From: Elusimicrobiota bacterium
GTDB taxonomy: Bacteria > Elusimicrobiota > Elusimicrobia > UBA1565
DNA length: 64,000 nucleotides
Direction of reading: 5' to 3'
NCBI GenBank assembly: GCA_043827405.1
Contig: JBDRPD010000001.1
Span: forward strand, 14,651 to 78,650
Shown: positions 31,230 to 64,000 of the stretch, piece after piece
Position numbering within the stretch: the stretch's first letter is position 1
Layout: each line of letters opens with the position of its first letter
Position numbers and translations under genes: made by a program
Notes under the pieces: model-generated
The model's input: only the letters and a program-made list of their open reading frames with translations
Database searches by the model: none
What the model was told of the DNA's origin: nothing

Positions 31230-31230
31230 G

Positions 31231-32724
31231 ATGCCTATCGCCGCGCTGCTGACGGCCCTGCTGACGGCGGCCGCAGCCGGCGTTTCCGGCGGCGCGTTCG
31301 ACGACTCCAACACCTATACCGAGCAGGCGCGTGCCGCGCTGCGGGCGGGAGACCTCCAGTCCGCGGTCGACCGCACGGGACAAGCGCTGGAGCTTTATCC
31401 CCGGAACGCCGAGGCCTACCGCGTTAGGGCTTCGGCCTTCAATGCGCAGGAGCGCTACAGCGAGGCGGAGATCGCCGCCCATGCGTCCCTGCGCCTGGAG
31501 CCGCGCAGCTCCTACGCCAATAATGAGCTGGCCTGGGCGCTGCTCCATCTGCGGCGCTACGCGGAGGCGGCGGAAAGCGCGTCGCGGTCGATCAGCGGCC
31601 GGCCCGACGGCGCGCAGGCTTATGCGCTGCGCGCCATGGCGCATGAAGGGCTCGGCCTCGGGAAGGAGTCGCTCGCCGATCTGCAGAAGGCCGCGGATCT
31701 GGATCCGCTCCGGCATGGGCAAAGCCTGCAAATCGTGCGCGAGGGCGGCTCGCTGCTCGGCGCCGGCAAGCGGCAGGTCTCGGAAGCGGCTTATGCCGTC
31801 GGGGCGGCGGCGCTGGTGCTGGTCGCGTTTGTCTTATGGGCGCTTTTTCGCAAATCCGCTTCCGCCGCGCGGCAGAAAGAAGAGGCCGCGGTGGAGGTGC
31901 GCGCGCCGCCGCCGCCGGGCCTCGAGGCCGGCGGCCTGATCGCCGGCCGGTACCAGCTCGTCCATATCATCGGCCGCGGCGGCATGGGGCAGGTATGGGA
32001 AGCGCGCGATACGTCGCTTGACCGTCCCGTGGCGGTCAAGGAGTTCTCGCGCGAGCTGGGTGAGCGCGGCTCGCAGCTGCGCGGGCTGTTCGTCCAGGAA
32101 GCGAAGACGGTGGCGGCCTTGAAGCACCGGCATATCGCCGACATCTACGAGATTCTGGACAGCCCGGAAGGGCTGTATATGATCTTCGAGTTCGTGCGCG
32201 GCCGGACCGTGCAGCATATCCTGGCGGAGAGAAAGACGCTCCCGGTTCCCGAGATCCTTACGGTGCTGCGGCCGGTATGCGAGGCGCTGGAATACGCGCA
32301 TCAGCACGGCGTCGTGCACCGCGATCTCAAGCCGTCCAATATAATGGTGGACGAACAGGGCTTTATCAAGCTGCTGGATTTCGGCATCGCCCGGCACCTG
32401 GGAGCGGCCGTCGAGCAGGAGAGCGCCGGAGCCGCGGTTCCCGGCGCGTCGCCGCTGCGTCTGGCGCATACGCGGACCGTCGTCGGCACGCCGGGCTATA
32501 TGCCGCCGGAGGCCGCTGCGGGAATCATCAGCCCCGCCGCCGATGTCTACGCGCTCGGCGTCTGCTTCTACGAAATGCTGACCGGGAATATCCCGCCCTC
32601 GCCGTTTCCGGGCGGGGTGTCTCCCGGGGTGGACGCGCTCATGGCGCGCTGCGTGCATCCGGACTACCGGTCCAGAATACACTCAGCCGGGGAGTTTCGG
32701 GCGATGCTGGAGCGGCTGGCTTAG
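31231..32724 (+). CDS. Receptor-like Ser/Thr protein kinase: signal peptide, TPR, TM helix, intact kinase
   Basis: Start ATG 31231. GRGGMG, VAVK, QEAK, HRDLKPSN, DFG, GTPGYMPPE and DVYALG. Confidence 0.92.
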   Translation: MPIAALLTALLTAAAAGVSGGAFDDSNTYTEQARAALRAGDLQSAVDRTGQALELYPRNAEAYRVRASAFNAQERYSEAEIAAHASLRLEPRSSYANNELAWALLHLRRYAEAAESASRSISGRPDGAQAYALRAMAHEGLGLGKESLADLQKAADLDPLRHGQSLQIVREGGSLLGAGKRQVSEAAYAVGAAALVLVAFVLWALFRKSASAARQKEEAAVEVRAPPPPGLEAGGLIAGRYQLVHIIGRGGMGQVWEARDTSLDRPVAVKEFSRELGERGSQLRGLFVQEAKTVAALKHRHIADIYEILDSPEGLYMIFEFVRGRTVQHILAERKTLPVPEILTVLRPVCEALEYAHQHGVVHRDLKPSNIMVDEQGFIKLLDFGIARHLGAAVEQESAGAAVPGASPLRLAHTRTVVGTPGYMPPEAAAGIISPAADVYALGVCFYEMLTGNIPPSPFPGGVSPGVDALMARCVHPDYRSRIHSAGEFRAMLERLA

Positions 32725-34151
32725 TTTTTACAGGCGTCGTTCATCTGGCGGCCTTGACCCGCGCAGTCGATGGGCACTGAGCTGTCGCCGCCGCGCAGAT
32801 CCGCGCAGGCGGCGCCGATGGCCGCGCCGTGCGTGTTGGCTTTGTCGCAGTAAGAAGTCACTACGGCGACTTTCTGCGCCAGCGTACTTTTGCTTCTTTG
32901 CCAACGGCGTCTCGAAGCGCCGCAGTTGAAGGCCAGGCAGTCCATCAAGGCGTTCCAGAAATCATGCTTCTTGTCGACGCAGTCGCGGATCTGCGCCTGC
33001 GCGACCTTGATCGCCTCGCCCATGCTGTCGAGGGCTTCCTGCTGCGGCGTCTTGTGCGCTTCCGTGGCATCGGTGCATTTCTTGATCTTGCGCTCCTGCT
33101 CTTCAGCCTGCTCTTTGAGCGCCTCGACGTCGCCGGTGCCCGGCAGGGTGCCGCCGCCGCCCATGCCCTGCAGGGAGTCTTTGCTGCCGGGTTCGCGGCC
33201 GCCGTCAAATACCAGGCCGGCCGTGTCCTTCATCAGCGTGCCGCCCGCCTCTTCGGTTTCGCTGGAGCCTTGTGCGGCATGGCTGAAGGCCTGGGCCACG
33301 GTAAGCTGGTACATCACCGTGGACTCGGCGCTCGGCGGTTGGGCGAGCGCTTTCTGGTCGCCGAGGAACTTGCGCGAATTGCGCATCTCGTTGGAGCTGC
33401 CGTGCCTGCCGCCGGTCTTTTGCCCCTTGCCCGCTCCCGGCGCCTGCATATTGCGCAAAGTTTTGTCGACCATGCCGTCGCCCAGATTAACGGGCTTGGC
33501 CTTTACTCCGTCCCGTTTCACCAGCAGGCCGGGGTCCATCATGATATTTGAGTGCTCGCCGGCTCCCGAGCCGCCGCCCGCGCCGGAGTGGTCGCCGGCG
33601 CCGCCGCCTGAATGGCGGATGGACTCGGCGAAGGCCGTATTGACCAGCCCTTCGACCAGCGAGCCTTCATCGACCGGCATCGCGTCGCCGGCCTTCTTCG
33701 CGTCTTCCGGCGTCATGACGCCCTTGATCGACTTGCCGCGTTCCTTGCCGACGCCGTCGTAGGTATACTGGCGCTCATCCTCCATCAGGTAGGCGCCCGA
33801 TACCATCTTGACGCGCGAATGCTTGGGGTTCGGCTTATAGTTGTTCATCGCGGCCAGGCGGCGGCGGATATAGCCGGGGACGCCCTGGTACATCTGGTTG
33901 AGCGCTTCCTGATACGCCTTGAGCTCCACGCCTTCCTGCTTGTTCCTATTGAGAAGCGCCGTGACGCCCAGCTTCTCGGCGACATAGGAGACGCCGGGAA
34001 TCTTGAGGACGACGGAAGGCTTCATGGCGAACAGAATGAGCGCGAGGGAGGCGACCACGACGACGGGACCGGAGCTTCGTCCTTGGCGGAAAGTGAAAAG
34101 CACCGCGGCCAGAAATCCCTTTTTCCTATTTTTTTCCAGGAATTTGCTCAT
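32721..34151 (-). CDS. Membrane-anchored Gly-rich hypothetical protein with a Cys-rich helical C-terminus
   Basis: N-terminal hydrophobic segments after 'EKNRKKG', Gly-rich middle, coiled coil, 8 Cys in the last ~120 aa. AAGGAG and a promoter lie upstream. Confidence 0.7.
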   Translation of the reverse strand: MSKFLEKNRKKGFLAAVLFTFRQGRSSGPVVVVASLALILFAMKPSVVLKIPGVSYVAEKLGVTALLNRNKQEGVELKAYQEALNQMYQGVPGYIRRRLAAMNNYKPNPKHSRVKMVSGAYLMEDERQYTYDGVGKERGKSIKGVMTPEDAKKAGDAMPVDEGSLVEGLVNTAFAESIRHSGGGAGDHSGAGGGSGAGEHSNIMMDPGLLVKRDGVKAKPVNLGDGMVDKTLRNMQAPGAGKGQKTGGRHGSSNEMRNSRKFLGDQKALAQPPSAESTVMYQLTVAQAFSHAAQGSSETEEAGGTLMKDTAGLVFDGGREPGSKDSLQGMGGGGTLPGTGDVEALKEQAEEQERKIKKCTDATEAHKTPQQEALDSMGEAIKVAQAQIRDCVDKKHDFWNALMDCLAFNCGASRRRWQRSKSTLAQKVAVVTSYCDKANTHGAAIGAACADLRGGDSSVPIDCAGQGRQMNDACKN

Positions 34152-34304: not shown

Positions 34305-37300
34305 ATGAACTTGCGCTGGCCGCCAGCTCCGCCCGGACTGCTTCGGAAGTGCCTCGCTTCCGCCGTCGCCGCCTCCCTGCTGGTAACCCAGCAGGGATTT
34401 TTCTTTTATGAGGCGATGGCCGCGCAGTTCGTCGCGCCGAAGGTCGGCGCGGCCGGCATGGGAACCGGCAATGCCGCGGCCGGCGCCGGCGCCGCCGCCA
34501 AGGTGCCCGGCATCCGGCTTGATAATTTCGGCCTGAATCTCTCGGGAGTCAATGCCGCCTCGGTGCTGCCGGCGAATACCGCGATCAACTCTGTCGCGCC
34601 CCAGCTCTCATCCGTCTTGTCGAGCCCGCATGCTCAAACCGTCACCGCGGAAGCGCCCGGTTTGCCGGCCGGCGTGAAGCAGGTCGCGGTCACGCCGAGC
34701 AAGGATATTGAACCGGCGAAAACCGCGGTCTCGCTGCGCGCGGGACTCTCCCAGCTCGGAAGCGCCCTGGTCAAGCCGGCGCGCGGCAAGCGCTCCGGGA
34801 TTCTTGGACGATTCTTCGACCAGGGGAAAAAGCATGACGGCTCCCCCGCTCCGCTCGGGGTCGGCGGTGCCGCGCGCCGGATGACGGGCCTCAGGCCCGG
34901 CGCGGACTTTAGCGTCGATCATTACCAGCGGCTAAAAGAACTCAAGCAGGTCCTGGGCGAAGGAACGCCCGAGGGTGCGGGCTGGATCCGCGCCTTCCGC
35001 TTCCGCGACCCGCAAAACGGCTGGCGCACCGCGCGCTCCGCCGGGCTGGAGGGCTTTTTCTTCACCAAGATCGAGCATGAGCAGACCTGGGGCGGGCTGA
35101 TCTCGTCCGGGCAGCTCGGAGACTACTTCAACTATCTCGACGCTTTGCTGACGCCGGTCGCCTGGACGGCGGACATTCGCCGCGAGCTGGCGGCGCTGCG
35201 CGACGACGCGTCCGTGCCGCTGGTGGAGAAGAACGATCGCCTCAACAAGCTCCTTATCCGTACCTTAGATAGGCTGCGGGCGGAGCTCAAGGAGCTCGAT
35301 AAGGCGCAGTGGGGGCGCAGCGCTCATACCTACGCCATTTTCTCGCGCGCCTACAACCGTTTGCGGCCCGGGAAGAATTTCTTCGATTCCCTCGACGATG
35401 AGGAACTGGCGCGCATCCGCGAGGAGGTCCAGGTCGACCAGCTGTGGCTGCTCGACATCTTCGAGATCGGCGACGTCAAGCGCTGGGGCACCGGCGGCGG
35501 CTCGCCCTACGCCATCAAGGGGTACCGGAAGATAAAGGAAGAGCTGGGCGGCGCGGAGGCTTTCGGCCGCTTCGTGCAGCGCGCGCATGCGCTGGGCTTC
35601 AAGGTCCGCACCGACTTTATCCCGAACCATACCTCGCTTGACAGCGAGCTGGCGCAGCGGCACCCCGAGGCCTTTATTCATCTCCTGCCGCCCCAGCATC
35701 TGTCCGATGACGAGATCTGGGCGCAGACGCCGCGCGAGGCGCAGGGGAACCGTCATCCCAACTTTTACCTGATCAAGACGCGAAGCTACCCGGGACGGGA
35801 GGGAATCGAGACCAAGGTTCTGATCCACCATCCGGTGTCCGACTTCGGGCTGTGGATCGACATGGGACAGATCGACTACAGCCAGAAGACCGCGCGCGCC
35901 TGGTTCATCGAGCAGGCCATGCACCTTTTCGGCGACAAGGGGGTCGACTCCATCCGGCGCGACATGGCCTACTACGTCATTAACGAGAACTACTACGACC
36001 GCTGGCTGAATATCCTGGAGGGAGAAAAGAACGGCGCCGGGGGCTGGGTGCGCGAAGCGCTGGAGCGCACGATCCGCGAGTTCCGCGAGCGCCGCGCGGC
36101 GCTCAACGGCGCCGAGGTGCTCGAGGAATTGACCGATACGGTGAAGCGCCGCTACCCGTCGGCGGTCATGGACGATGAGGTCTATGCCTTCTTCACCGGC
36201 ATGAGCCGCCTGGGGGCCGACGGCATCTACGGCAAGAACACGCAGGACGCGGAGATGGGGCAGTTCGGCCTCTTCGACGCCCTGAAGAGCTTCAACGCGG
36301 GCGCCATCCGCCGGGCCCTGCGCAACAACTTCTTCCGCTTCTGGCAGAAAGGCGGCGCCAGCACGGTGAACTTTGTCGGCAACCACGACGAGGCGAATCC
36401 CGTTGATGTTTTCGGGGTGCGCTTGCGGGCGGCGGCCGCCATGGCGCTCTTGGGCGGGCCGATTTTGACCTATAACGGCTTCGAGCTCGGCACCGGCCAG
36501 CGCGAGATGGTGGGCGACCTGCCGAACTCGGTCGACCGCAACAAGGCCATCCCGTTCGATGTGCCGGTGATGATTCGCTGGGAGACCGTCAACCGGGAGA
36601 ACCGGCTCTTTATCCGGGATCTGCTGCGGGCGCGCCGGCGCAATATCGGCTTGTTTGAGAACGGCGCGGCGTCCGTGCTCGAGCCCTATCAAGACACCCC
36701 GATCGTGGCCTGGTCGGCGAGCCGCCGCGAGGCCGGCCGGCAGGAGACCCTGCTCGTCGCCGGGAACTTTAATCATGATTGGGCCTGGGGGCACTTCAAG
36801 TTCAGCGCGCCGATCCTCGGCGAGTTCGGCGCCTTCCGGCCGCGCGCCGACCGGAACTACATCCTGCGCGACGCCGTGCACCGGGGCGAAGACGGCCGGC
36901 CGCTGACCTTCGAACGCACCGGCAAAGAGCTGCAGGAACAGGGGCTCTTCGTGCACCTGGCTCCCGGCGACGCGCATATCTTCGAGGTCGAAGAGCTCGA
37001 TCCGAGCGCTCCGGCGACCGGGCCGCCTGCCCGCTCGGTCATCAGCCGCCTGCGCGACGCCGCCGTCAGCGGCATCGAAGAGCCGCTGGCCTTCAAGTTT
37101 ACCGGCATCCGCGAGGAGCTCTGGGGACCGCACCATGAAGCGAGGAAGCCGCAGACCTGGGATGCCCTGACCAAATGGCTCACCGACTCGGCCATCCTCG
37201 CCTTCCTGCCGCTGCAGGTGCCGCAGATCATCAAGAACTTCCTGCTGATCTCCGCCGGAACGCTGGCGCCGATCTCGATTCTTCCGTGGATGGGCTATAC

Positions 37301-38096
37301 GACGGGAATTCTCGGCAATATGCTGCTGCTCTCCTATTTCGTCTCCAAGAAAGAGGCGGGGGCCGCCCGGGTGCAGGCGGTCGGCGTAATCACCAGCGGC
37401 ATCGTGCTGGCGCAGATATTCTACGCCGGCTTCATGCCGGCATTCGCTTTTTGGGGCATCGCGGCGATGATGGCGGGCGGGCTGACGCTGAACCTGCTGA
37501 AGTACCTGGGCGTCTTCAACGGCAATATCTGGAAGGCGTGGACCATGATCAGCGGACTGACCGGGCTGGGAGTGCTGCCCACCGTGTTATGGTCGACCTT
37601 CATGCCGCAGATGTCGGTTTGGCCGGCGGTGGTGACCCTGGCGGGAGGACTCATCTTCCTCCTGCTGCAGCGGCTCGGCAAGCTTCCCAAGGGACTGGAG
37701 AACACCTGGTCCAAGCTCTCGGCCTGGACGGCGACCATGCTCTTTATGTTCGGCCCCATCGCCCAGCTGGTCAGCAACTTCGCCAATCCCGCCAATATCG
37801 CGGGGCTCTCGCTGCTCACCCTCATGCTGGCGACCGCGGGCAATGCCTTGATGCTGCCCCGCGCGATCCTGACCAAGGACCGCATCTGGCTCACCGGGAG
37901 CTTGTGGGCGGTGGCGATGGGCGGCTGGGCGGTGATGCTCAGCATGCTGCTTTACGGCGCCGTCTCGCCGCTGTTCTTCGCGGGTTTTTCCGTCATTCTG
38001 CCGGTCTACCTGGCCTTCATTATCCGCCAAGCCATGAAGCATCACGGGGCGACTTTCCGCGAGCTCCTGCGCTCGCTGGTTAAAGGCGGCGCCTAA
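34305..38096 (+). CDS. Leader-tagged GH13 alpha-amylase-family enzyme fused to a MEX1-like maltose transporter domain
   Basis: GH13 motifs GSPYAI, DFIPNH, DSIRRDMA (nucleophile), DEVY and NHDE. The C-terminal ~310 aa are multi-pass, with 'WD.LT...FL.LQVPQII.N', 'PWMGYTTGILGNMLLLSYF', 'WTATMLFM', 'GNALMLPRA' and 'D.IWLTGSLWA', matching recalled plant MEX1 motifs. Confidence 0.85.
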   Translation: MNLRWPPAPPGLLRKCLASAVAASLLVTQQGFFFYEAMAAQFVAPKVGAAGMGTGNAAAGAGAAAKVPGIRLDNFGLNLSGVNAASVLPANTAINSVAPQLSSVLSSPHAQTVTAEAPGLPAGVKQVAVTPSKDIEPAKTAVSLRAGLSQLGSALVKPARGKRSGILGRFFDQGKKHDGSPAPLGVGGAARRMTGLRPGADFSVDHYQRLKELKQVLGEGTPEGAGWIRAFRFRDPQNGWRTARSAGLEGFFFTKIEHEQTWGGLISSGQLGDYFNYLDALLTPVAWTADIRRELAALRDDASVPLVEKNDRLNKLLIRTLDRLRAELKELDKAQWGRSAHTYAIFSRAYNRLRPGKNFFDSLDDEELARIREEVQVDQLWLLDIFEIGDVKRWGTGGGSPYAIKGYRKIKEELGGAEAFGRFVQRAHALGFKVRTDFIPNHTSLDSELAQRHPEAFIHLLPPQHLSDDEIWAQTPREAQGNRHPNFYLIKTRSYPGREGIETKVLIHHPVSDFGLWIDMGQIDYSQKTARAWFIEQAMHLFGDKGVDSIRRDMAYYVINENYYDRWLNILEGEKNGAGGWVREALERTIREFRERRAALNGAEVLEELTDTVKRRYPSAVMDDEVYAFFTGMSRLGADGIYGKNTQDAEMGQFGLFDALKSFNAGAIRRALRNNFFRFWQKGGASTVNFVGNHDEANPVDVFGVRLRAAAAMALLGGPILTYNGFELGTGQREMVGDLPNSVDRNKAIPFDVPVMIRWETVNRENRLFIRDLLRARRRNIGLFENGAASVLEPYQDTPIVAWSASRREAGRQETLLVAGNFNHDWAWGHFKFSAPILGEFGAFRPRADRNYILRDAVHRGEDGRPLTFERTGKELQEQGLFVHLAPGDAHIFEVEELDPSAPATGPPARSVISRLRDAAVSGIEEPLAFKFTGIREELWGPHHEARKPQTWDALTKWLTDSAILAFLPLQVPQIIKNFLLISAGTLAPISILPWMGYTTGILGNMLLLSYFVSKKEAGAARVQAVGVITSGIVLAQIFYAGFMPAFAFWGIAAMMAGGLTLNLLKYLGVFNGNIWKAWTMISGLTGLGVLPTVLWSTFMPQMSVWPAVVTLAGGLIFLLLQRLGKLPKGLENTWSKLSAWTATMLFMFGPIAQLVSNFANPANIAGLSLLTLMLATAGNALMLPRAILTKDRIWLTGSLWAVAMGGWAVMLSMLLYGAVSPLFFAGFSVILPVYLAFIIRQAMKHHGATFRELLRSLVKGGA

Positions 38097-38150
38097 AGCG
38101 AACACCGTCCGGCCGGCGTCGTCCTTTGTATATAATCACTGAGCGCAACC

Positions 38151-39161
38151 ATGGAACACGCACTCACCCGCTTTATTGAAAGCATTTCCCTGATCCACCC
38201 GATTCTTGTATTCGGTCTGATCGCGGTCTGCTTGGGCCTCGTCGGCAAGAGCGCCGACATCCTGGTCGATGAGGCGGTGCTGCTGGCGCGGCGCTCCGGG
38301 GTGTCCACCGTTATCATCGGCGCGACCGTGGTCAGCCTCGGCACCACCATGCCGGAAGCCGCGATCTCGGTATTCGCCGCCATCCAGGGCAAGCCGGGTC
38401 TGGCGCTGGGCAACGCCGTCGGCTCGGTGATCTGCGATACCGGCCTGATCCTGGGTTTGGCCTGCATGCTGGGCGAGCTGCCGCTGGACCGCAGAACGGT
38501 GAACCGCCAGGGCTGGATCCAGCTGGGAGCGGGGATTCTCCTGGTGGCCGTGACCCTGGCCTTCGGCCGCCGCTTGCCGCGGGGCGCCGGCTTCGTATTT
38601 CTCGGTCTTCTTGCCGTCTATATCTGGCTGTCGGTCCGCTGGGGCAAGTCGGCCGGCTGCGAAGAGGGGGGAGAGGTGCCGCAGGAGTCGGCGGGATATA
38701 TCCTGCTCAAACTCGCGGGTGCGATCACTCTCCTTATTATCGGCTCACGGATCCTGATCCCCGCGGTCATGCATGTGGCGCTGCTCTTCGGCGTGCCCGA
38801 GGATATCATCGCCGCGACCTTGGTCGCCTTCGGCACTTCGCTCCCCGAGCTGATTACGGCGGTGACCGCCGTGCGCAAGGGCGAGGGGGGGCTGGCGGTC
38901 GGCAATATCATCGGCGCCGATATCCTGAACATCCTGTTCGTCTCGGGTGCGGCCTGCGCGGTGACGGCGGGCGGCCTGGCGGTGCCGGACACTTTCTTCA
39001 AGCTGCACTTCCCCGCGATGATCGCCATCCTGGTTATCTTCCGTCTGGGAATATTCTTCTCCGGCAAGCAGCTCAAGCGGCCTTTCGGCTTTCTGCTGCT
39101 CGCCTCCTATGCCGTGTATCTGATTCTGCAGTACACCCTGCTCGGCCGCGTCGGCGGCTGA
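38151..39161 (+). CDS. Calcium/sodium antiporter (CaCA, YrbG-like)
   Basis: Alpha-repeats 'GTTMPE...GNAVGS' and 'GTSLPE...GNIIGADI.N'. TATAAT at 38131. Confidence 0.92.
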   Translation: MEHALTRFIESISLIHPILVFGLIAVCLGLVGKSADILVDEAVLLARRSGVSTVIIGATVVSLGTTMPEAAISVFAAIQGKPGLALGNAVGSVICDTGLILGLACMLGELPLDRRTVNRQGWIQLGAGILLVAVTLAFGRRLPRGAGFVFLGLLAVYIWLSVRWGKSAGCEEGGEVPQESAGYILLKLAGAITLLIIGSRILIPAVMHVALLFGVPEDIIAATLVAFGTSLPELITAVTAVRKGEGGLAVGNIIGADILNILFVSGAACAVTAGGLAVPDTFFKLHFPAMIAILVIFRLGIFFSGKQLKRPFGFLLLASYAVYLILQYTLLGRVGG

Positions 39162-39175
39162 GCGCCCTGTCCTTG

Positions 39176-39255
39176 GTCCTAATAAAATTTGGGTCCAATT
39201 CCTGTGAAATGCGGTCTGGTTGACCCATGCGTATTCGCTGTTTTCCCAATAAGAT
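39176..39255 (+). promoter_or_regulatory. Conserved promoter architecture, copy 2
   Basis: GTCCTA-N8-TGGGTC-N24-TTGACCCATGC-N19-TAAGAT, 7 nt before ATG 39263. Confidence 0.75.
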
Positions 39256-39262
39256 CATAGAG

Positions 39263-40561
39263 ATGAGCGTTTTCCTTAGAAAGCTTCTGGCGTCCGTCAT
39301 CACCGCTTCCCTGCTGGTGGCCCAGCAGGGTTTTTCTTTTAGCGCTCAGGCGGCGATCAAGGTGAACCTCGCGGCGACGAGCGGCGGCTCCAGCGCGGCG
39401 GCGGCGGCGGGCGGCGTTATCGGCGCCAATAGCGCGCTCAACAATCTTAAACTTTCCGCCCAGGGCTTGAACCTTAAGACCGGCGTCCTGCCGTCGGTGA
39501 ATATGCCGAATGTCTCGGTGAACGGCGCCGTCGGTAATGTCGAAACCGTGCTGCCGCTGTCGGTGGCGGCGCCGACTATGGAAGCCAAGAAAGCCCAGGG
39601 AGTCGGGACCGTCTCCGCCGCTGAGGTTCCGGCCGCCGCGCCGGCGCTGGCAAGGAACGGGCACCAGAAAACGGTGATGCGCCGGGCCGCTCGCATCCAG
39701 CAGGCGCTGGGCAAAAAGACTGCCACCGAACTGCATCAGCTTTTCGATAATGCGCGCCAGGCCGGCGCGGAAAACTTCGTCGGGGCGGAAGAAAGCGGCG
39801 CGAAAAAGCCGGCGGTGAAGCTTAAGCCGGCCGCGGAAGCCCCGGTCAAGAAACGCCGGCTCATCGAGTTCCGTCCCGAGGTCATCAAGGGCATCAAGGA
39901 AGCTTTCCGCAGTTCGTGGACCCGGCCCAACAAGCAGGACTATACCTACCTGGTCACCAAGACTTTCGGCGTCAACCTGGCGGTGCGGCTCGGCTTTGTC
40001 ATCCAGGGCGTCATGGGCGGCACTTTGCCGCTGCTGCGGGCCATTCTGTCGACCACCTGGTATCAGGCGCAGGACGCGGTCTTCACCGTTTTCGGGCAGA
40101 CCTATATGAAGTTCCTCAACAAGATGACGGGTCTGCTGCGCATCCATAACGCCGAGGTCGGCGACTTCCTCTTCATCTATACCCAGCTCGTCTTCTTCGA
40201 ATTCCTTAACCGGCTCGTGCTCGGTCCCTTGGGCGCCAATCCGCTGGTCTATAGCTGGGCCGGCATAGGGCTGATTTTCCTCAATATCATACAGGGCATG
40301 ATCGCCGGCGGTCCGCTCATCCCGGCCATCAACAAGATGCACAAGGCGGGCGTGATCAAGCACTCCACCATGATGCATCTCTACCAGATATCCAGCCTGA
40401 CCATGCATCTGGGGCTGTTCGCGACCTTCGGCTTTCAGTCGATCTTTACCTTGCTCAGCACCATCCTCATGTTCATATCGTGGGGGCTTTACCTCTACTT
40501 TACGGCCTTCTACAAGCCGCCTCCCGGCGCCGTATTGCCCGACGAGTCCAACGGCCTCTGA
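39263..40561 (+). CDS. Leader-tagged multi-pass membrane protein of unknown family
   Basis: Start moved to ATG 39263. Leader is homologous to those of 34305 and 40664. The C-terminal ~210-aa membrane domain is paralogous to 45628-46833. Confidence 0.8.
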   Translation: MSVFLRKLLASVITASLLVAQQGFSFSAQAAIKVNLAATSGGSSAAAAAGGVIGANSALNNLKLSAQGLNLKTGVLPSVNMPNVSVNGAVGNVETVLPLSVAAPTMEAKKAQGVGTVSAAEVPAAAPALARNGHQKTVMRRAARIQQALGKKTATELHQLFDNARQAGAENFVGAEESGAKKPAVKLKPAAEAPVKKRRLIEFRPEVIKGIKEAFRSSWTRPNKQDYTYLVTKTFGVNLAVRLGFVIQGVMGGTLPLLRAILSTTWYQAQDAVFTVFGQTYMKFLNKMTGLLRIHNAEVGDFLFIYTQLVFFEFLNRLVLGPLGANPLVYSWAGIGLIFLNIIQGMIAGGPLIPAINKMHKAGVIKHSTMMHLYQISSLTMHLGLFATFGFQSIFTLLSTILMFISWGLYLYFTAFYKPPPGAVLPDESNGL

Positions 40562-40575
40562 CCTCCCGTCCGTTG

Positions 40576-40655
40576 GGCCTATTATTTTTTGGGTCCTATT
40601 TCATCCGAATCAGACCTTGTTGACCCATGCGGGCCCGGCGCTTCGCGGTTAATAT
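40576..40655 (+). promoter_or_regulatory. Conserved promoter architecture, copy 3
   Basis: GGCCTA-N8-TGGGTC-N24-TTGACCCATGC-N19-TAATAT, before GTG 40661 / ATG 40664. Confidence 0.75.
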
Positions 40656-40663
40656 TAATAGTG

Positions 40664-43213
40664 ATGATACGCTTTAAGAAGATTCTCGCCTCGCTTCTCT
40701 CAGCCTCCCTGCTGATCGCCCAGCAGGGCTTTTTATTCCGGGCGGACGCGGCGGTCAAGGTCAATGTCGCGGGAACCGCGAGCGGCGGCGGCGCGGCCGC
40801 GGCGGCCGGGGGCTCTCTCGGCGTCAACAATGCATCGCTTAACAGCCTCCAGCTTTCCAATCAGGGCCTGAACCTCAAGACCGGCGTCCTGCCTTCGGTC
40901 GGCAACATTCAGGCGGAGATAAATCCGCAGTCGTTAATAAAGTCGGTCGCCCTTCCCAAGGCGGTCGCCGCGCAGGGGATCGCCGGCAAAGTCAAAGCCG
41001 CTGAATCGATTGCGCAGCCGGGAGCGGAGACCAAGGAAGCGAAGGTTTCTCCCTCCGCGCAGGCCCGGACGCTGTCGCGCGAGCTCGCAAAGAGCTCTAA
41101 GAAGGAGCGCGGCGGCCTGCTCAGCAAGTTTTTCGACAGCTCCAAGCACGGCCTGTCGCATAAGGATGCGGCGGTCGAGCCGGGCGAGGGCGATTTCGGC
41201 GGCGGCCGCAGCGGGCTCAATAAGAAGCCCGGCCTCAAAGAGCTGCGCACGCTGCTCGTTGACGGTACGGTCGCCGAGGACGGTCCGCTCCAGCCTTTCG
41301 GCTTCCGGACGCCGGATGGGACTTATGTCGCGGCGCCGACGGCGGGTCTGGAATCCTTCTTTGAAGCCAAGCAGACCCATGAATGGCGCCATGGTGAGGC
41401 GAACTCGTCCGGACAGGTCAACGATTACTTCAACTATCTCGACGCGCTTCTCGCGCCGCTGGCCTGGACGGTAGAGATTCGACGCGATCTGAGGACCCTC
41501 AAGCTTTTGGCGATGGATGACCTGGCGAAAAACCGCGCGCTTAACGAGCTTCTTATAAAGACCGTCGGCCGGATTCAGAGCATGGAGGTCAAGGAAATTC
41601 TGGCCGGCTCCAAGGCGCCGAACTCTTTGGAAGAGGCGACGCTGGATATCGATCCGAACCGGGAGTACTACCCCTCGCCGGAAGATTGGCGCGACGAGGT
41701 CATCTACTTCTCCATGATCGACCGCTTTTCACGGAGCAAGAAGGGGATGCCGCGCGGCGACCCTAAAGACGGCGGCTCCCGTCATGGCGGCGACATCCGG
41801 GGCATCATCGACCGCCTGGACTACATCAAGGAGTCCGGCGTTACTTCAATCCTTTTCACCCCGGTTACCATGGGATTGCCCAAGGCCTATCATGGCTACG
41901 CTCCCCTGCATCTCCTCGAAGTCGATCCCCATCTGGGCACCATGGAGGATTACAAGGAGATGGTCCGCGAGGCGCATAAGCGCGGCATCCGGGTTATTAT
42001 GGACCTGGTCCTCAACCATACCGGGCCGGTTTTCGAGTACAAAGACGGCAGCCGCTGGTCGGGTGTCGATAAGCCGCGCAAAGAGATCGACGATTGGACC
42101 TTTGACCTGAAGCCCGTTGAGCTTAAGGACGCGGGACGCTTCTCGCGGCGGGGCGTCATCGACGACTGGCAGCATCCGGACCAGGTGACCAAGGGCGACT
42201 TCCCGCCCAACTACCGGCACTTCCGGACCGACGATCCCAAGACGCGCAAGATGCTGACCCAGGTGGCGCTGTGGTGGCTCAAAGAAACCGATGTCGACGG
42301 TTTCCGCCTCGATGCCATTCGCCATGTCGATCCCTCTTTCTGGCCGGAGTTCAACCGCGCGGTGCGGCAATACGCCGCCAAGCTCGGCAAGAAGAACTTC
42401 TTCCTGCTGGGCGAGAACTCGACCGGGGTGGACTGGGAGCTGCTGCAGTATATGGGGAAGGACCAGTTTGACAGCACCTACAACTATCCGTCTTACCGCC
42501 GAGACAATAAGGCGCTGCACGGCGCCGCGCCGACGAAAGCGCTCGAAGACAGCATTAAGGCCAACCTCTCGGTTCTCGGCGGCTTTGCCGGGTACTTATT
42601 ACGCTTCATCGATCTGCACGACACCTACCGCTTCCTGCGCTCGCGCGAGCCCATCAACATCCTCAAGCTGGGGATGACCTACCTGATGTTCTCGCTCGGC
42701 ATCCCGATCGTCTACGCCGGCACGGAGCAGGCCATGCGGCAGTACGTCGACAGCCTGGACCCGGAGGGGCCGCACCAGCCGGCCGACCCGCAGAACCGTG
42801 AGGACATGTTCCCCGAGGGGCAGTTTAAGTCCGAGAGCTCCAAGGGCGATATGTTTAATGCGGAATCGGACACTTTTAAGTTCCTGCGCCGGCTCGCGGA
42901 CCTGCGGCAAAAGCATCCGGCCCTGCGCCGCGGCGAACACCAACCGCGCTGGGTCGATCCTTACGGCCCCGGCATCTATGCATTCAGCCGCATCTACGGT
43001 GACGAGGAGGTCCTGGTGGTTATGAACACCTCCGGCGTCGAGCGCTCGGCCTCCATGTACGTTGACGCCGAGCGCAGCCCGGGCGGCACCCGGTTCGCCG
43101 ACGAGCTCGACCGCGCCTACACGGGCGTCGCCAAGACCCACCCCGAAGGCGGCTCCATGCTCGACGTCACCGTCCCCGCCAACGGCGTGCGCGTCCTCGT
43201 CCGCCGCCGCTAA
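40664..43213 (+). CDS. Leader-tagged GH13 alpha-amylase-family glycosidase
   Basis: DWRDEVIYF..IDRF, GGDIRGIIDRLDYI, YHGY, DLVLNH, DGFRLDAIRH, GEN and DLHD. Start could be 40661. Confidence 0.92.
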   Translation: MIRFKKILASLLSASLLIAQQGFLFRADAAVKVNVAGTASGGGAAAAAGGSLGVNNASLNSLQLSNQGLNLKTGVLPSVGNIQAEINPQSLIKSVALPKAVAAQGIAGKVKAAESIAQPGAETKEAKVSPSAQARTLSRELAKSSKKERGGLLSKFFDSSKHGLSHKDAAVEPGEGDFGGGRSGLNKKPGLKELRTLLVDGTVAEDGPLQPFGFRTPDGTYVAAPTAGLESFFEAKQTHEWRHGEANSSGQVNDYFNYLDALLAPLAWTVEIRRDLRTLKLLAMDDLAKNRALNELLIKTVGRIQSMEVKEILAGSKAPNSLEEATLDIDPNREYYPSPEDWRDEVIYFSMIDRFSRSKKGMPRGDPKDGGSRHGGDIRGIIDRLDYIKESGVTSILFTPVTMGLPKAYHGYAPLHLLEVDPHLGTMEDYKEMVREAHKRGIRVIMDLVLNHTGPVFEYKDGSRWSGVDKPRKEIDDWTFDLKPVELKDAGRFSRRGVIDDWQHPDQVTKGDFPPNYRHFRTDDPKTRKMLTQVALWWLKETDVDGFRLDAIRHVDPSFWPEFNRAVRQYAAKLGKKNFFLLGENSTGVDWELLQYMGKDQFDSTYNYPSYRRDNKALHGAAPTKALEDSIKANLSVLGGFAGYLLRFIDLHDTYRFLRSREPINILKLGMTYLMFSLGIPIVYAGTEQAMRQYVDSLDPEGPHQPADPQNREDMFPEGQFKSESSKGDMFNAESDTFKFLRRLADLRQKHPALRRGEHQPRWVDPYGPGIYAFSRIYGDEEVLVVMNTSGVERSASMYVDAERSPGGTRFADELDRAYTGVAKTHPEGGSMLDVTVPANGVRVLVRRR

Positions 43214-45619
43214 ATGAGCCCGCAGTCCTGGCTCGGAAAATCCATTTACTTCATTCTGACCGACCGCTTCTACAACGGCGACAAGTCCAATGACGACTTC
43301 GGCCAAGGTGAGTACGATCCCCAGAGCGACGATTGCTTCCAGGGCGGCGATCTTAATGGCATAACGCGCAAGCTCCCGCATATCAGGAAGCTGGGCTTCG
43401 ACGCGATCTGGCTCACTCCGCCGGTGCATAACCAGTGGATCAACCCCTATATCGCGACCCGGGGCTTCCACGGCTACTGGGCCTACGATTTTACCCGGGT
43501 CGATCCCCATTTCGGCACCTTGGAGGATTACAAGAGGCTGGTGCGCGAGGCGCATAAGCTCGGCCTCAAGGTGATCCAGGATATCGTCGTTAACCACACG
43601 GGCAACTTCTTTACGGTCGACGACAAAGGCTACGATCCCCGGAAGCCGGAAAAGAACTGGCGCGGCGTGATCAAGAAGGGCGCCAAGGCGCCGCGTGATC
43701 CGGTCTTCAAGCTGAACAACCCGAACAATCCCGCGCACAAGAAGGCGGGCGTCTACAACTTCACGCCCAATATCTCCGATTTCAAGAGCCGTGAGCAGAC
43801 CTTGACCTACTCCATGGGCGACCTCGACGACATCAACCTGCGCAGCCCGCTGGCCGCCAACCGGATGAAGGAGATCTACCGCTACTGGATCGAGGAAGTG
43901 GGGATCGACGGCTACCGGGTCGATACCGTCTACTACACGCCGGAGGATTTCTACGAGGGCTTTCTCTACGATGATTCGCCGCAGCACCCCGGCATCAAGC
44001 GGGGGAACAAGGACTTCTTCGTCTTCGGCGAGGTGTGGTCCTACGACTATAAGGCGATAAATAAATATCTCAAAGACGGACGGACAAAGCGGCTGGACTC
44101 CGCGATCGACCTGCCGCTCAACGAGGCCCTGACCCAGGTATTCTATCGCAAGACCCCGACCGAGGACCTGCGCAAAGCGCTGTCCGCCCGGCGGCACAAC
44201 CGGAACCTGTGGGTCAATTTCCTCGACAACCACGACGTCGAACGGATGAACAGCCGCGCCAACTGGCGCAGCGTCCGGCAGTCCTTGGTCGCGCTGTTTA
44301 CGCTGCCCGGCATCCCCTGCGTTTACTACGGCACCGAAGCCGGCTTCAAGGCGGCGCGGCAGAATATGTTCAAGGACAGCTGCTACGATGAGAAATCGAA
44401 GTATTGCCGGTTTCTGCGCCAACTGCTTCGCTTGCGCAAACAGCATCCGGCCCTGAGCCGCGGCGCCTGCTCGGTCGAGCGGGCCTCGTTCTCCTGCGGG
44501 GTGCTGTCCTATGCGGTCGAGCATGCCGGAGAGCGCTACCTGATGGTCTTTAATACGGCGCCGGACCGCATGTTCTATGAGCTGGAGGAGGGGCGGTCTT
44601 ATCAGGTGCTGCTGTCATCCGAGAAGGATCGAGCGGCCGGCGGTGCAATGATATTAGCGCCGGAGTCGTACTACGTGCTCAAGGCCGGGGGACGCAAGGA
44701 GAAAGCCGGGAAGGGCCGGCCGAATATCCGCATGCGTCCGCTGCGTCCGGGAACATACTCCGACGACATCGGCATCCGCTTCCGGCTCGACAAGCCCGGG
44801 AAGATCAGCGGCCTGTATCTGCTCTCTAACGACAACTTCGATAAGAGGGTCAAGATCGCACAGCCCCGGGACGGCAAGCTTAGTCTACGCGCCGCCGAGC
44901 TTGATAACGGCAAGCATCGTCTGCGCCTGCTGGCGAAGACCGGGACCCAAAGCTTCAGTGCGTCCGCCAGCTCGGAGATCACGGTGCGCAACGCTTACCG
45001 GCGGCTGACGGATTTTACGCTGCCGGCGGGAAATAAGGGCGGCCTGGACTGCGAGCTTCATATTCCCGCGGACCCGAGCTATGACCGGCAGTGCTCAATC
45101 GAACGCGTCAGCGTCTATTCGAGCGGCAGGGATTTGCGGCTGCAGCTGAAGATGGCCAATGTCACCGATGATTGGAACCCGCCGCACGGCTACGATCACG
45201 TCTACTTTAATGTGCTCTTCGACTTCCCCGGGGAAAAGGGCCGGTGCTTTTTCCCGAAGATGAACTACCGGTGCCGGGATTTCGCGTTCAATGCCGGCTT
45301 TCTGCTTTACGGCTGGGGCGCCCAGTCCTACGGGACGAAAGGTGCGTCGGAGGACGCCTACGGCGAGCCGCTGTTCGGGGAGATCGTGCAGGCCGCTGAT
45401 TTAAAGACGCAAACGATCACTTTTACGTTTTCCAGCAAGTTCTTCGATTCCCTGAAGACGCTCGACGGGGTAAAGATCTTCCTCTCCACCTGGGACGGCT
45501 ATCTCGCGGATTTCCGCAAGATCGCGAACCGGAAATCGGACTGGGAATTCTATACCCTCAAAAGCGGGCGCATCGAGGATGTTCCCCGCATCTTCGATTA
45601 TGCGATAATCCGTATCTAG
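43214..45619 (+). CDS. GH13 alpha-amylase-family glycosidase with no signal or leader, and a C-terminal glucodextranase/DOMON-like domain
   Basis: IYFILTDRFYNGD, FHGYW, DIVVNH, DGYRVDT, GEVW and FLDNHD. C-terminal 'WNPPHGYDHV' motif. Confidence 0.9.
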   Translation: MSPQSWLGKSIYFILTDRFYNGDKSNDDFGQGEYDPQSDDCFQGGDLNGITRKLPHIRKLGFDAIWLTPPVHNQWINPYIATRGFHGYWAYDFTRVDPHFGTLEDYKRLVREAHKLGLKVIQDIVVNHTGNFFTVDDKGYDPRKPEKNWRGVIKKGAKAPRDPVFKLNNPNNPAHKKAGVYNFTPNISDFKSREQTLTYSMGDLDDINLRSPLAANRMKEIYRYWIEEVGIDGYRVDTVYYTPEDFYEGFLYDDSPQHPGIKRGNKDFFVFGEVWSYDYKAINKYLKDGRTKRLDSAIDLPLNEALTQVFYRKTPTEDLRKALSARRHNRNLWVNFLDNHDVERMNSRANWRSVRQSLVALFTLPGIPCVYYGTEAGFKAARQNMFKDSCYDEKSKYCRFLRQLLRLRKQHPALSRGACSVERASFSCGVLSYAVEHAGERYLMVFNTAPDRMFYELEEGRSYQVLLSSEKDRAAGGAMILAPESYYVLKAGGRKEKAGKGRPNIRMRPLRPGTYSDDIGIRFRLDKPGKISGLYLLSNDNFDKRVKIAQPRDGKLSLRAAELDNGKHRLRLLAKTGTQSFSASASSEITVRNAYRRLTDFTLPAGNKGGLDCELHIPADPSYDRQCSIERVSVYSSGRDLRLQLKMANVTDDWNPPHGYDHVYFNVLFDFPGEKGRCFFPKMNYRCRDFAFNAGFLLYGWGAQSYGTKGASEDAYGEPLFGEIVQAADLKTQTITFTFSSKFFDSLKTLDGVKIFLSTWDGYLADFRKIANRKSDWEFYTLKSGRIEDVPRIFDYAIIRI

Positions 45620-46835: not shown

Positions 46836-46940
46836 GCTGCTCTCTGAGCTCGCCGCTTCCGTCGACTGTCTTTCCTCCGCGCTGGGCAAGGTCTACGCTT
46901 CGTCAAGACAGTCGACGGAATCGGCTTGGCCGGGAGCAGC
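46836..46940. repeat. Long inverted repeat between convergent genes
   Basis: Perfect 16-bp arms TTCCGTCGACTGTCTT (46857-46872) and AAGACAGTCGACGGAA (46905-46920), extendable imperfectly to GCTGCTCTC/GGGAGCAGC. Confidence 0.75.
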
Positions 46941-59112: not shown

Positions 59113-59136
59113 TTGTTTAACATACAGGGGAAGCAA

Positions 59137-60204: not shown

Positions 60205-60223
60205 GGATGTGCCGGGGGAGACT

Positions 60224-63567: not shown

Positions 63568-64000
63568 ATGAGCCCAGCAAACGAAGACGAGAAAAAGGAA
63601 AAGCAAGGCGCCGGGGCGGTGCTGCCGGGCGCGGCGCCGGTCCTGATGAAGTCCGTATCCACCGGCAGCGGCCTGTTCGGCATGGCGGGCGGGGGCTTCA
63701 AGGCGTTTCTGCTGGGAAAGATCGGCATCGCGGCGGCGGCGCTGGGTGTCGGCATGGTGGGAATGGCGGGATATCAGGCGGTCACGCAGAAAAAAACGCC
63801 CGCGGCGAAGCAGGTCCTCGCGGCGGCGCAGGTCGCGCGTCCCGGCTTCGATGTAAGGGAGTCCAAGCGCGACGCGCAGGGCAGTAATTCCTTGGCGCTG
63901 ATGGAGCAGGCCGGACAGGGCGAGATCAATTGGGCCGGCGCCGGCGGCGCGGGTCAGGACGGCGCGGCGGCGGATGCTCCCGCCGGCGAGGGCGAGGGCG
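63568..64000 (+). CDS. Gly/Ala-rich membrane protein, array member (runs off the window)
   Basis: Not in the ORF track; translated by hand: MSPANEDEKKEKQGAGAVLPG...FLLGKIGIAAAALGVGMVG...NSLALMEQAGQG. Same motifs as the two preceding genes. Confidence 0.75.
   Translation, partial: MSPANEDEKKEKQGAGAVLPGAAPVLMKSVSTGSGLFGMAGGGFKAFLLGKIGIAAAALGVGMVGMAGYQAVTQKKTPAAKQVLAAAQVARPGFDVRESKRDAQGSNSLALMEQAGQGEINWAGAGGAGQDGAAADAPAGEGEG

What the first reader, a model, noticed from the sequence alone, without database searches (positions are those of the whole stretch)
34305..41137. Shared ~160-170 aa N-terminal leader ending in an 'FD' motif on three different cargo proteins
Seen: 34305, 39263 and 40664 begin with K.LAS...ASLL..QQG, followed by an Ala/Gly-rich 'AAA.AG' stretch, 'GLNL..(G)VLP', a low-complexity spacer and a terminal GRFFD / QLFD / SKFFD at aa ~158-172. 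39461-39498 and 40862-40899 are also near-identical in DNA. The downstream cargo differs: amylase+MEX1, an unknown membrane domain, an amylase. Inference: conservation extends far beyond a Sec signal peptide, so the leader may be a portable second-step targeting tag. A long disordered leader on a polytopic membrane protein is hard to explain by normal inner-membrane insertion.
Basis: partly seen in the sequence, partly recalled or inferred. Interest (0 to 1): 0.85.

Follow-up and report, generated by a model that had tools for sequence, protein, structure and literature searches.

The report
Shared export tag on Elusimicrobia proteins
About sixty unrelated enzymes and transporters of an uncultured groundwater bacterium start with the same 160-residue tag and have lost almost all their cysteines, which points to an undescribed route that ships cytoplasm-type and membrane proteins out of the cell, most likely into a prey or host cell.

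Summary
The leader is real and not local. It heads 63 of 3,191 called genes in this Elusimicrobiota genome and occurs in 73 of 80 genomes of the order, mostly in several copies. It is a Sec-type signal peptide, a GAAG block, an LP block, a disordered basic linker and a helix ending in (L/F)FD(G). Cargo includes adenylate kinase, PPK2, glycogen synthase, ClpB-like and MoxR ATPases, RNase II, MFS/ABC/MscS transporters, proteases, amylases and a MEX1 homologue. Leaderless copies of the cytoplasm-type cargo are kept. Cargo holds 12 cysteines in 48,452 residues; paralog pairs 1 against 60. A signal-peptide-bearing giant with a SecA-family motor lies in an operon that starts in this window and shares the leader's distribution. 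Best reading (0.55): a two-step address tag for delivery into another cell's cytoplasm and inner membrane. Destination, route and binding are untested. I found no description in print; the scan had noted only this same stretch before.

The parts
34305..34820 (+). Leader 1 (signal peptide, GAAG block, LP block at 34566, linker, FD at 34815-34820)
   Evidence: recovered by the foreign-only model at E 2e-14
34821..38096 (+). Cargo 1: GH13 alpha-glucan hydrolase fused to a C-terminal MEX1 (maltose exporter) homologue; no cysteine
   Evidence: GH13 catalytic-type motifs found by pattern
39263..39748 (+). Leader 2 (FD at 39743-39748); 74% DNA identity to leader 3 over 224 nt
   Evidence: foreign-only model E 1e-8
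39749..40561 (+). Cargo 2: membrane domain of no known family ('X'); no cysteine
40664..41137 (+). Leader 3 (FD at 41132-41137); AlphaFold2: helix 2-20, no fold 21-129, helices 130-147 and 153-156
   Evidence: foreign-only model E 1e-15
41138..43213 (+). Cargo 3: GH13 alpha-glucan hydrolase; no cysteine
43214..45619 (+). Leaderless GH13 paralog (6 cysteines in the stretch where cargo 3 has 0)
45628..46833 (+). Leaderless paralog of cargo 2 (57% identity; 3 cysteines where cargo 2 has 0)
32721..34151 (-). Paralog of the 453-aa gene of the candidate apparatus operon, divergent from leader 1
   Evidence: N-terminal match, E 1.6e-5; role not tested
55531..56727 (+). Conserved first gene of the candidate apparatus operon; prepilin/TadE-like N-terminus by eye, no Pfam hit
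57258..58988 (+). FtsH-like AAA+/M41 protein, conserved in the operon
59113..60204 (+). Conserved unknown membrane protein of the operon, no cysteine
60209..61690 (+). 'EKKG...TPYQ...hairpin' family member (candidate pilus-tip or pore part; unproven)
61747..63555 (+). 'EKKG...TPYQ...hairpin' family member
63568..64000 (+). Start of a further family member; the contig end overlaps contig C22 by 141 bases, where the operon continues to the SecA-like giant (G000:C22:51959-61135) and a 5,400-aa leader protein (G000:C22:34432-50814)

Best explanation
The leader is a portable, two-part address tag of an undescribed protein-delivery system of one Elusimicrobiota order. Step 1 (inferred from sequence features): the signal peptide sends the chain through Sec, membrane segments included. 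Step 2 (inferred): the basic, acid-poor, disordered remainder with its LP block and closing FD(G) helix keeps the chain unfolded and is read by a dedicated apparatus that threads it, leader first, into the cytoplasm and inner membrane of another cell (prey or host, most likely a bacterium). A giant protein with a similar signal peptide, one weak membrane segment and a cysteine-free SecA-family ATPase is the likely motor, working on the ATP-containing side. The cargo then acts there: proteases, nucleases and phospholipase digest; ADK and PPK2 regenerate ATP for AAA+ enzymes; glycogen synthase, amylases and MEX1, MFS and other carriers convert and release nutrients. Shown: the family, its spread, cargo classes, kept paralogs, cysteine purge, the SecA fold and co-occurrence. 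Inferred: export, the second step, the motor's role, the destination.
For: Family of 63 with a gap from E 2e-8 to 2e-4; a model from 102 foreign proteins alone recovers 52 of 63, with 0 reversed and 0 internal hits; all 150 listed hits of 193 among 1.84 billion proteins lie at the N-terminus. Sec features: basic n-region 59 of 63, hydrophobic core 62 of 63, A-x-A 54 of 63. Leader after the signal peptide is net positive in 56 of 63; D+E 0.9% up to the LP block. ADK, PPK2, GlgA, LonB-like, RNB and Fic cargo have no membrane segment by hydropathy yet need cytoplasmic substrates (established knowledge); ADK, PPK2, GlgA, ClpB-like and MoxR keep their motifs; leaderless copies exist for ADK, PPK2, GlgA, ClpC, MoxR, RNase R, ABC and SDF (24 of 63 cargoes have a non-member paralog). 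In five MFS-type cargoes the first helix follows the leader with no extra helix and the large basic loops keep their usual places (hydropathy only), which does not fit a cleaved signal peptide plus normal insertion in the cell's own membrane. Cysteine: 12 in 48,452 cargo residues against 1.28% in soluble proteins without and 0.53% with an ordinary signal peptide; 21 paralog pairings 1 against 60; 96 foreign cargoes 24 in 55,755; MFS domains 0 in 6 against a mean of 5.15 in 13; polytopic proteins 0.02% against 0.99%. Motor: fold search ranks 1-14 are all SecA; Walker A 28, DExD 28, QxxGR 33 of 33 full-length giants; no cysteine after residue 431 of 3,058. Co-occurrence in 80 genomes of the order: both 69, neither 4, leader only 4 (all 80-88% complete), motor only 3; Fisher p 0.0014, kin not independent. 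G014 (97% complete) has no leader hit and keeps the operon with a truncated giant lacking the motor. Outside the order, two genomes carry 4,200-6,100-aa proteins with the leader-type signal peptide, a weak SecA_DEAD/DEAD match and GGDEF, MFS or PPDK domains, the domain mix reported for giant proteins of predatory Omnitrophota (10.1101/2023.11.21.568195, passages and section 7).
Against: Nothing shows that these proteins are made, exported or enter another cell; the lifestyle of the order is unknown (PMC9476967, whole text: aerobic heterotroph from a mixed amoeba culture, no predation reported). Cysteine loss shows exposure to an oxidising space, not transit through it: 71 of 946 long non-member proteins are also nearly cysteine-free, many of them surface or outer-membrane types, and no DsbB or VKOR was found, so the 'avoid Dsb-made loops' version lacks support. 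MFS cargo helices are not less hydrophobic than those of ordinary MFS (p 0.58), so how they would escape Sec insertion is unexplained. The FD(G)-type motif is in only 39 of 63 members and 53 of 102 foreign leaders (control 125 of 1,237), and neither block alone recovers the family. The ABC cargo has a degenerate signature and Walker B, and no Walker A was found in the LonB-like cargo. Many cargoes (S8, S41, EndA, PLD, amylases) work in a periplasm anyway, and 23 of 63 have no Pfam family. No pore or conduit is identified: Tad RcpC is in 126 of 151 phylum genomes, the EKKG family also occurs in 6 of 7 genomes of a family without leader or motor hits, and the motor also occurs in other orders (7 of the 53 outside-order genomes). 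Three motor-positive genomes have no leader hit.
Confidence: 0.55

Rival explanations
1. The cargo stays in the cell's own periplasm, on its surface or in vesicles; the leader is an intramolecular chaperone, spacer or tether for an exported digestive kit, with PPK2 and ADK making ATP from polyphosphate outside the cytoplasm.
For: Sec-type signal peptides; many hydrolases among the cargo; cysteine exclusion is a known trait of exported proteins where no disulfide system exists (PMC2823432, abstract) and DsbB and VKOR were not found; amylase plus MEX1 makes sense as a periplasmic hydrolase with an inward carrier (inference).
Against: Glycogen synthase needs ADP-glucose; MFS, ABC, MscS, AcrB, FtsH and MutS-type cargo have their leader on the side that is normally cytoplasmic (established topology); ordinary exported proteins keep 0.53% cysteine, 20 times the cargo; it does not explain the co-distributed motor.
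Confidence: 0.18
2. The tag addresses a second compartment of the same cell (an internal membrane-bounded space, an enlarged energised periplasm, or an engulfed or periplasmic partner), which needs its own ATP supply, proteases, storage enzymes and carriers.
For: The cargo looks like a maintenance kit (ADK, PPK2, GlgA, Clp, Lon, FtsH, PspA, MscS); the two-part layout resembles organelle signals; N-terminal extensions go with an internal membrane in Atribacter laminatus (PMC7736352, passages).
Against: The Atribacter extensions are 10-73 aa, gene-specific and on essential proteins such as FtsZ; here no replication, translation or division proteins were among 63 cargoes and 50 foreign ones; nucleases, phospholipase D and a Fic protein fit attack better; no ultrastructure of this order was found in the papers seen.
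Confidence: 0.17
3. The N-terminal helix is not a working Sec signal; cargo remains in the cell's own cytoplasm and inner membrane, gathered by the leader at a polar or membrane-bound complex built on the SecA-like giant.
For: It removes the topology problem for MFS, ABC and ATP-dependent cargo; the giant has one weak membrane segment before the motor, which could place the motor in the own cytoplasm; SignalP could not be run.
Against: n-, h- and c-regions are regular; cytoplasmic and inner-membrane proteins of this genome keep 1.0-1.3% cysteine while cargo and motor have almost none; housekeeping copies already serve the cytoplasm.
Confidence: 0.08
4. Compositional look-alikes or local duplicates with no common function.
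For: The leader is low-complexity (Ala 17.6%, Gly 10.6%, Ser 9.1%, Pro 7.2%); leaders 2 and 3 share recent DNA ancestry.
Against: Reversed and internal controls give 0 hits; the foreign-only model recovers the family; the cysteine purge lies in the cargo, which the model does not score.
Confidence: 0.02

Closest known systems
Archaeovorin-type giant proteins of Omnitrophota (10.1101/2023.11.21.568195; 10.64898/2026.06.07.730766; PMC10066038)
   Same: Signal peptide, membrane helices, cytoplasm-type enzyme domains (PPDK, GGDEF, AAA, starch synthase) and a divergent SecA DEAD domain; Tad/T2SS genes nearby; tied to predation.
   Different: There cargo and motor are fused in one 10,000-147,000-aa chain read as surface-anchored; here about 60 separate cargoes carry one shared leader and the motor is a separate 2,400-3,400-aa protein. 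No shared leader or cysteine purge was reported in the passages seen; direct homology to Omnitrophota sequences was not tested.
Bipartite organelle signals: Paulinella crTP (10.1101/2025.01.15.633182, abstract); signal-plus-transit peptides of secondary plastids (recalled)
   Same: Long two-part N-terminal tag on many unrelated proteins: a secretory part, then a second-step part; basic and acid-poor like transit peptides (recalled).
   Different: crTP part 2 is folded and has a conserved cysteine pair; this leader is predicted disordered and cysteine-free, and it is bacterial.
Trafficking domains of polymorphic effectors: T6SS WHIX and RIX (PMC12135965, PMC10435454; search listing only), T4SS and T3SS signals (recalled)
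   Same: Portable N-terminal module fused to interchangeable cargo for one delivery machine.
   Different: Those routes skip Sec and carry toxins; here a Sec-type signal leads, cargo includes 12-helix transporters and metabolic enzymes, and TssC, VirB4 and FlhA were not found.
Accessory SecA2/SecY2 export (recalled)
   Same: A second SecA-family ATPase with substrates that have unusual N-termini.
   Different: The SecA-like protein has its own signal peptide, a 1,000-aa insert between motifs II and III and 11-15% identity to SecA structures; only one SecY motif hit.
Tad-like Kil system of Myxococcus and Tad pili of Bdellovibrio (PMC12428579, passages; PMC8460266, PMC12075869, listing)
   Same: Tad cluster beside the operon in the complete genome CP096137; contact-dependent delivery of unknown effectors is hypothesised there.
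   Different: No effector signal is known for Kil; Tad is phylum-wide here, so linkage is by position only.

Membership tests
Sec (signal peptidase I) substrate | basic n-region, hydrophobic core, A-x-A | tested here: met
   59, 62 and 54 of 63 by pattern; SignalP not available
Sec (signal peptidase I) substrate | cleavage and export shown | not testable with these tools
   needs N-terminomics or fusions
Tat substrate | twin-arginine consensus | tested here: not met
   0 of 63 consensus; RR at the basic pair in 11 of 63
Lipoprotein | lipobox cysteine | tested here: not met
   0 of 63
Type III effector | FlhA/SctV export gate in the genome | tested here: not met
   PF00771 not found in a 98% complete genome
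Type IV effector | VirB4 ATPase in the genome | tested here: not met
   PF03135 not found; divergent forms could be missed
Type VI cargo tag (MIX, RIX, WHIX) | T6SS sheath in the genome | tested here: not met
   PF05943 not found
Type IX cargo | C-terminal sorting domain | tested here: not met
   no such family listed for the 63 (only the best 5 families shown for five long proteins); the tag is N-terminal
Accessory SecA2/SecY2 system | second SecA-family ATPase | tested here: met
   motifs, profile match to own SecA E 9e-5, probability 59%, fold search; PDB sequence search gave only weak DEAD-box hits
Accessory SecA2/SecY2 system | cytoplasmic SecA2 without signal peptide, with SecY2 | tested here: not met
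   the giant starts with a signal peptide; one SecY motif hit only
Archaeovorin giant proteins | SecA DEAD domain fused with enzyme domains and membrane helices in one chain | tested here: inconclusive
   seen in two genomes outside the order (SecA_DEAD E 0.005 with GGDEF and MFS; DEAD with PPDK); not in the modular system of G000
Archaeovorin giant proteins | length of 30,000 aa or more | tested here: not met
   longest member 5,460 codons
Archaeovorin giant proteins | homology of the motor to the Omnitrophota SecA-like clade | not tested
   the pattern scan found 52 loci, 48 titled Elusimicrobia(ota), Endomicrobium in 1 of these titles, 4 'bacterium'; it reaches close relatives only
Paulinella crTP | folded part 2 with cysteine pair | tested here: not met
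   pTM 0.21, no fold over residues 21-129; cysteine 0.0% after the signal peptide
Any Pfam or NCBIfam family for the leader | profile match | tested here: not met
   no Pfam stretch in a leader; 0 NCBIfam families for 6 isolated leaders; nearest Atlas clusters are unnamed, score under 0.9

The most novel reading that the evidence does not exclude
A new type of bacterial secretion: the cell first plants its own SecA-family motor across the membrane of a target cell and then uses the target's ATP to pull in dozens of leader-tagged enzymes and multi-pass transporters, installing a 'farming' kit (glycogen synthase, amylase, MEX1 maltose export, ATP regeneration, osmotic and membrane repair) rather than only toxins. 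It would be the modular form of the giant SecA-bearing polyproteins of predatory Omnitrophota, and a candidate source of the plastid maltose exporter MEX1.
Probability: 0.3. Interest if true: 0.97.

Novelty: categorically new. Interest (0 to 1): 0.88.

Why it matters
If true, a widespread uncultured lineage has a protein-import route into other cells that handles 12-helix transporters and housekeeping-type enzymes, something known from organelle biogenesis but not from bacterial secretion. It would give order UBA1565-type Elusimicrobiota a lifestyle (predator or parasite), give a testable reading for the puzzling cytoplasm-type domains and divergent SecA domains of Omnitrophota giant proteins, and offer a sequence-defined tag plus a candidate motor for experiments. 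It also places bacterial, leader-bearing MEX1 next to plant MEX1, a transporter once called plant-specific and of unknown origin (PMC2246286, passages).

Tried and rejected
Complex prediction of the leader (residues 30-166) with the C-terminal motor part: no answer, score 0.00; no evidence either way, and the likely binding insert was not in the job. RNA: no RNA holder listed; two RNA runs laid gave 0 and 1 contig piece. DNA contigs of the probable source run cover the stretch evenly in two long pieces. Lower helix hydrophobicity of cargo: not seen for MFS (p 0.58); slightly lower over all polytopic proteins (2.05 against 2.15, p 0.002) but confounded by family. Even-number cysteine bias in ordinary exported proteins: none, 89 of 194. 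Loop-charge sums from hydropathy were unreliable where helices were missed; only the order leader-then-helix-1 and the places of the large loops are used. Block-wise models (residues 36-100 or 115-190) found 5 and 6 hits and missed the window leaders. Repeated gain of the leader on domain X: 7 of 120 homologues carry it; a quick tree of 45 of them needs 3 changes, 2 forced by strong branches, but one clade is not rejected (p-AU 0.054). Tad and the EKKG family as specific partners: too widespread. Atlas searches for the leader and for domain X gave leads under the bar only. PDB sequence search with the whole giant: 0 hits. Earlier-finding searches by words, sequence and relatives found nothing on this system. 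PMC7785019 (groundwater Elusimicrobia, 2020) is not held; the primary Velamenicoccus paper was not seen; no supplements were read, and those of the two Omnitrophota preprints could bear on novelty.
Full report
Observation. The three genes start at 34305, 39263 and 40664 and carry FD at residues 171, 161 and 157. 34305 and 40664 are GH13 enzymes that are also alike beyond the leader. The C-terminal domain of 34305 is a MEX1 homologue. The domain of 39263 has no family. The organism is an Elusimicrobiota: relatives of the proteins are named so. Its order is probably UBA1565, because the marker and 14 leader hits (E up to 0.01) occur in CP096137, which PMC9476967 (whole text) places there; this placement is an inference.

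A genome-wide family. A model seeded with the three leaders grew to 9, 31, 54, 60 and 64 hits and stopped; 63 of 3,191 called genes score below E 1e-6, the next at 2e-4, and reversed N-termini gave none. They lie on 31 contigs and make up 4.4% of coding residues. About six weaker candidates, one a leader-only 190-codon ORF, were left out of all counts. The layout is: signal peptide often closed by PG or QG (35 of 63), a GAAG-type block (41 of 63), an LP block near residue 70 (56 of 63), a linker, and an FD-type motif at median residue 159, range 134-186 (39 of 63). Median pairwise identity is 21%. AlphaFold2 gives a signal helix, no fold over residues 21-129 and helices at 130-147 and 153-156. 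After the signal peptide the leader is net positive in 56 of 63 and almost free of acidic residues up to the LP block. No Pfam or NCBIfam family matches it.

Independent recovery and spread. Against 1.84 billion representatives the model found 193 proteins; all 150 listed matches are N-terminal, 28 of them from this genome. A model from 102 of the foreign ones alone recovered 52 of the 63, with no reversed or internal hits; without the signal peptide it still gave 33 hits, 31 of them members. The leader is in 19 of 20 relatives and 73 of 80 genomes of the order (at most 44 candidates scored per genome, so copy counts are floors). In a phylum sample of 150 it hit 5 of 6 genomes of the order and 3 of 144 others, the latter weakly and over the signal peptide only.

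Cargo. 40 of 63 cargoes have a Pfam family: adenylate kinase, PPK2, glycogen synthase, two ClpB-like and one MoxR ATPase, vWA/DUF58, LonB-like, RNB, HD, Fic, nucleotidyltransferase, ATP-grasp; six MFS, SDF, ABC, MscS; M50, M48, Rce1, S8, S41, DegP and M28 peptidases; EndA, EEP nuclease, PLD, two GH13. Fifty foreign cargoes add AcrB, FtsH, Lon, MutS, PspA, rhomboid and ankyrin-DnaJ (50 of 96 long ones scanned). For ADK, PPK2, GlgA, ClpC, MoxR, RNase R, ABC, SDF, a GH13 and domain X the genome keeps a leaderless copy, so the tagged copies are extra. Two such pairs lie in the window (43214, 45628). ADK, PPK2, GlgA, ClpB-like and MoxR motifs are intact; the ABC cargo is degenerate and the LonB-like one lacks a recognisable Walker A. 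In five MFS-type cargoes the first helix follows the leader directly, putting an exported leader on the face that is normally cytoplasmic.

The cysteine purge. This signal lies outside what the model scores. Cargo has 12 cysteines in 48,452 residues; 55 of 63 have none. Soluble proteins without a signal peptide have 1.28% (625 proteins), those with an ordinary one 0.53% (307 proteins; both sets by crude rules). In 21 pairings with leaderless paralogs (7,497 columns; one ClpC copy used twice) the counts are 1 against 60; 96 foreign cargoes have 24 in 55,755. Tagged MFS domains have 0 in 6, untagged a mean of 5.15 in 13; tagged polytopic proteins 0.02%, untagged 0.99%. For domain X, 7 tagged homologues average 0.7 and 109 untagged 2.0. 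Cysteine exclusion is known as an adaptation of exported proteins to oxidising surroundings (PMC2823432, abstract), and an autotransporter passenger is nearly cysteine-free (PMC3564066, passage). So even the membrane and cytoplasm-type parts seem to leave the cytoplasm. The purge does not tell transit from residence; 71 of 946 long non-members are also nearly cysteine-free, and DsbB and VKOR were not found.

Candidate apparatus. FlhA, VirB4 and TssC were not found; there are three secretins over the cut-off, seven PilB/GspE-type and nine PilT-type ATPases by score class, and a Tad cluster. One gene with a leader-like signal peptide, G000:C22:51959-61135 (3,018 aa), carries SecA-type motifs in order with a long insert. 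A model of its C-terminal part from a relative matches SecA at ranks 1-14 of the PDB (E 2e-6 to 3e-5, TM 0.32-0.39 by query); the profile match to the genome's own SecA is weak (E 9e-5). Motifs are kept in 28-33 of 33 full-length copies; cysteines are confined to the N-terminal 431 residues, before one weak membrane segment. The gene sits in an operon that begins in this window: 55531, an FtsH-like gene at 57258, 59113, a run of 'EKKG' paralogs from 60209, three unknown genes, the giant, a Y1-family gene and a 4,600-5,400-aa leader protein; the order is kept in G157, G007 and G013, and contigs C1 and C22 overlap by 141 bases. In CP096137 the Tad cluster lies just upstream. Across 80 genomes of the order the motor is in 72; both traits are present in 69 and absent in 4, while 4 have only the leader (80-88% complete) and 3 only a divergent motor (p 0.0014, but two of the four double negatives share a genus and the motor model was built from some of these genomes). 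G014 keeps the operon with a 776-aa remnant that lacks the motor and has no leader hit. Against specificity: RcpC is in 126 of 151 phylum genomes, the EKKG family in 6 of 7 genomes of a family without leaders, and the motor in several other orders.

Link to giant proteins. In G109 and G143, outside the order, 4,200-6,100-aa proteins begin with the leader-type signal peptide and hold a weak SecA_DEAD or DEAD match with GGDEF and MFS, or PPDK. Omnitrophota giants are described with divergent SecA DEAD domains, such enzyme domains, membrane helices and neighbouring Tad/T2SS genes (10.1101/2023.11.21.568195, passages and section 7; 10.64898/2026.06.07.730766, passages and section 21; PMC10066038, passages). 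Those papers read them as surface-anchored. My reading, an inference, is that fused giants and the modular leader system are two forms of one delivery principle.

Mechanism and odds. That the leader marks a shared non-standard export route I put at about 0.85. Destination: another cell 0.55, own periplasm or surface 0.18, an own second compartment 0.17, no export 0.08. The cargo suggests digestion and nutrient release, with ATP regeneration by ADK and PPK2 and a glycogen synthase-amylase-MEX1 route for carbon; secretion of glycogen enzymes into a host by chlamydiae is a recalled parallel, not checked here.

Novelty. Paper searches for this in Elusimicrobiota listed nothing that describes it; the 2026 Omnitrophota preprint has no occurrence of 'Elusimicrobi' or 'leader'. 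The 2020 survey of groundwater Elusimicrobia was not available, and most subscription papers are not held. Membership in Tat, lipoprotein, T3SS, T4SS, T6SS, T9SS, SecA2/SecY2 and crTP classes was tested and not met; it works like a bipartite organelle signal. The scan had noted this same stretch once before (e1-7074052, report withheld) and nothing on other DNA.

Noticed in passing
window 37170-38093: The MEX1 domain is 36-51% identical to 22 plant and algal-type proteins and 31-36% to 12 cyanobacterial-type ones; in a 45-row tree the plant clade and the Elusimicrobiota-type rows lie on one side of a 100/100 branch, cyanobacterial-type rows on the other (midpoint root, no outgroup, selected rows). 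Relatives fuse MEX1 directly to the leader. MEX1 was called Plantae-specific in PMC2246286 (passages).
   Followed up: partly
G000:C22:50879-51907: A 300-aa Y1 transposase-like gene with a DnaA-type HTH sits near the motor gene in 29 of 52 loci; possibly a domesticated regulator.
   Followed up: partly
window 60209-64000; G000:C22, C1, C14, C23, C30, C52, C60: Family of 15 paralogs with a basic N-terminus ending in KKG, Gly-rich linker, TPYQ and a hydrophobic hairpin; no Pfam family; present in the order and in one other family.
   Followed up: partly
G000:C23:17647-18219: A 190-codon ORF that is a leader with no cargo: adaptor, decoy or donor cassette.
   Followed up: no
G000:C52:49796-54775 and C56:9538-15303: Two related large proteins, the first with a signal peptide, a YDG motif near residue 220 and almost no cysteine; possibly a second leader class.
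   Followed up: no
window 46967-51049: Peptidoglycan-processing cluster: NamZ, MltA and a GH3, next to the leader cluster.
   Followed up: no
window 28776-32724: Two TPR-plus-Ser/Thr-kinase membrane proteins in tandem.
   Followed up: no
window 716-20160: Two giant fn3 proteins with a PorV-TPR gene between them; covered by an earlier scan note.
   Followed up: no
window 24959-27214: Cysteine-free protein with signal peptide and long Pro-rich linker, no family.
   Followed up: no
window 38151-39161: Leaderless Na/Ca exchanger gene lying between leader genes 1 and 2.
   Followed up: no
G000 whole genome: Neither DsbB nor VKOR found, though a DsbA-like motif exists.
   Followed up: partly
window 46866-46911: A short intergenic stretch matched by two other long contigs of the probable source run; likely a dispersed repeat.
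   Followed up: no
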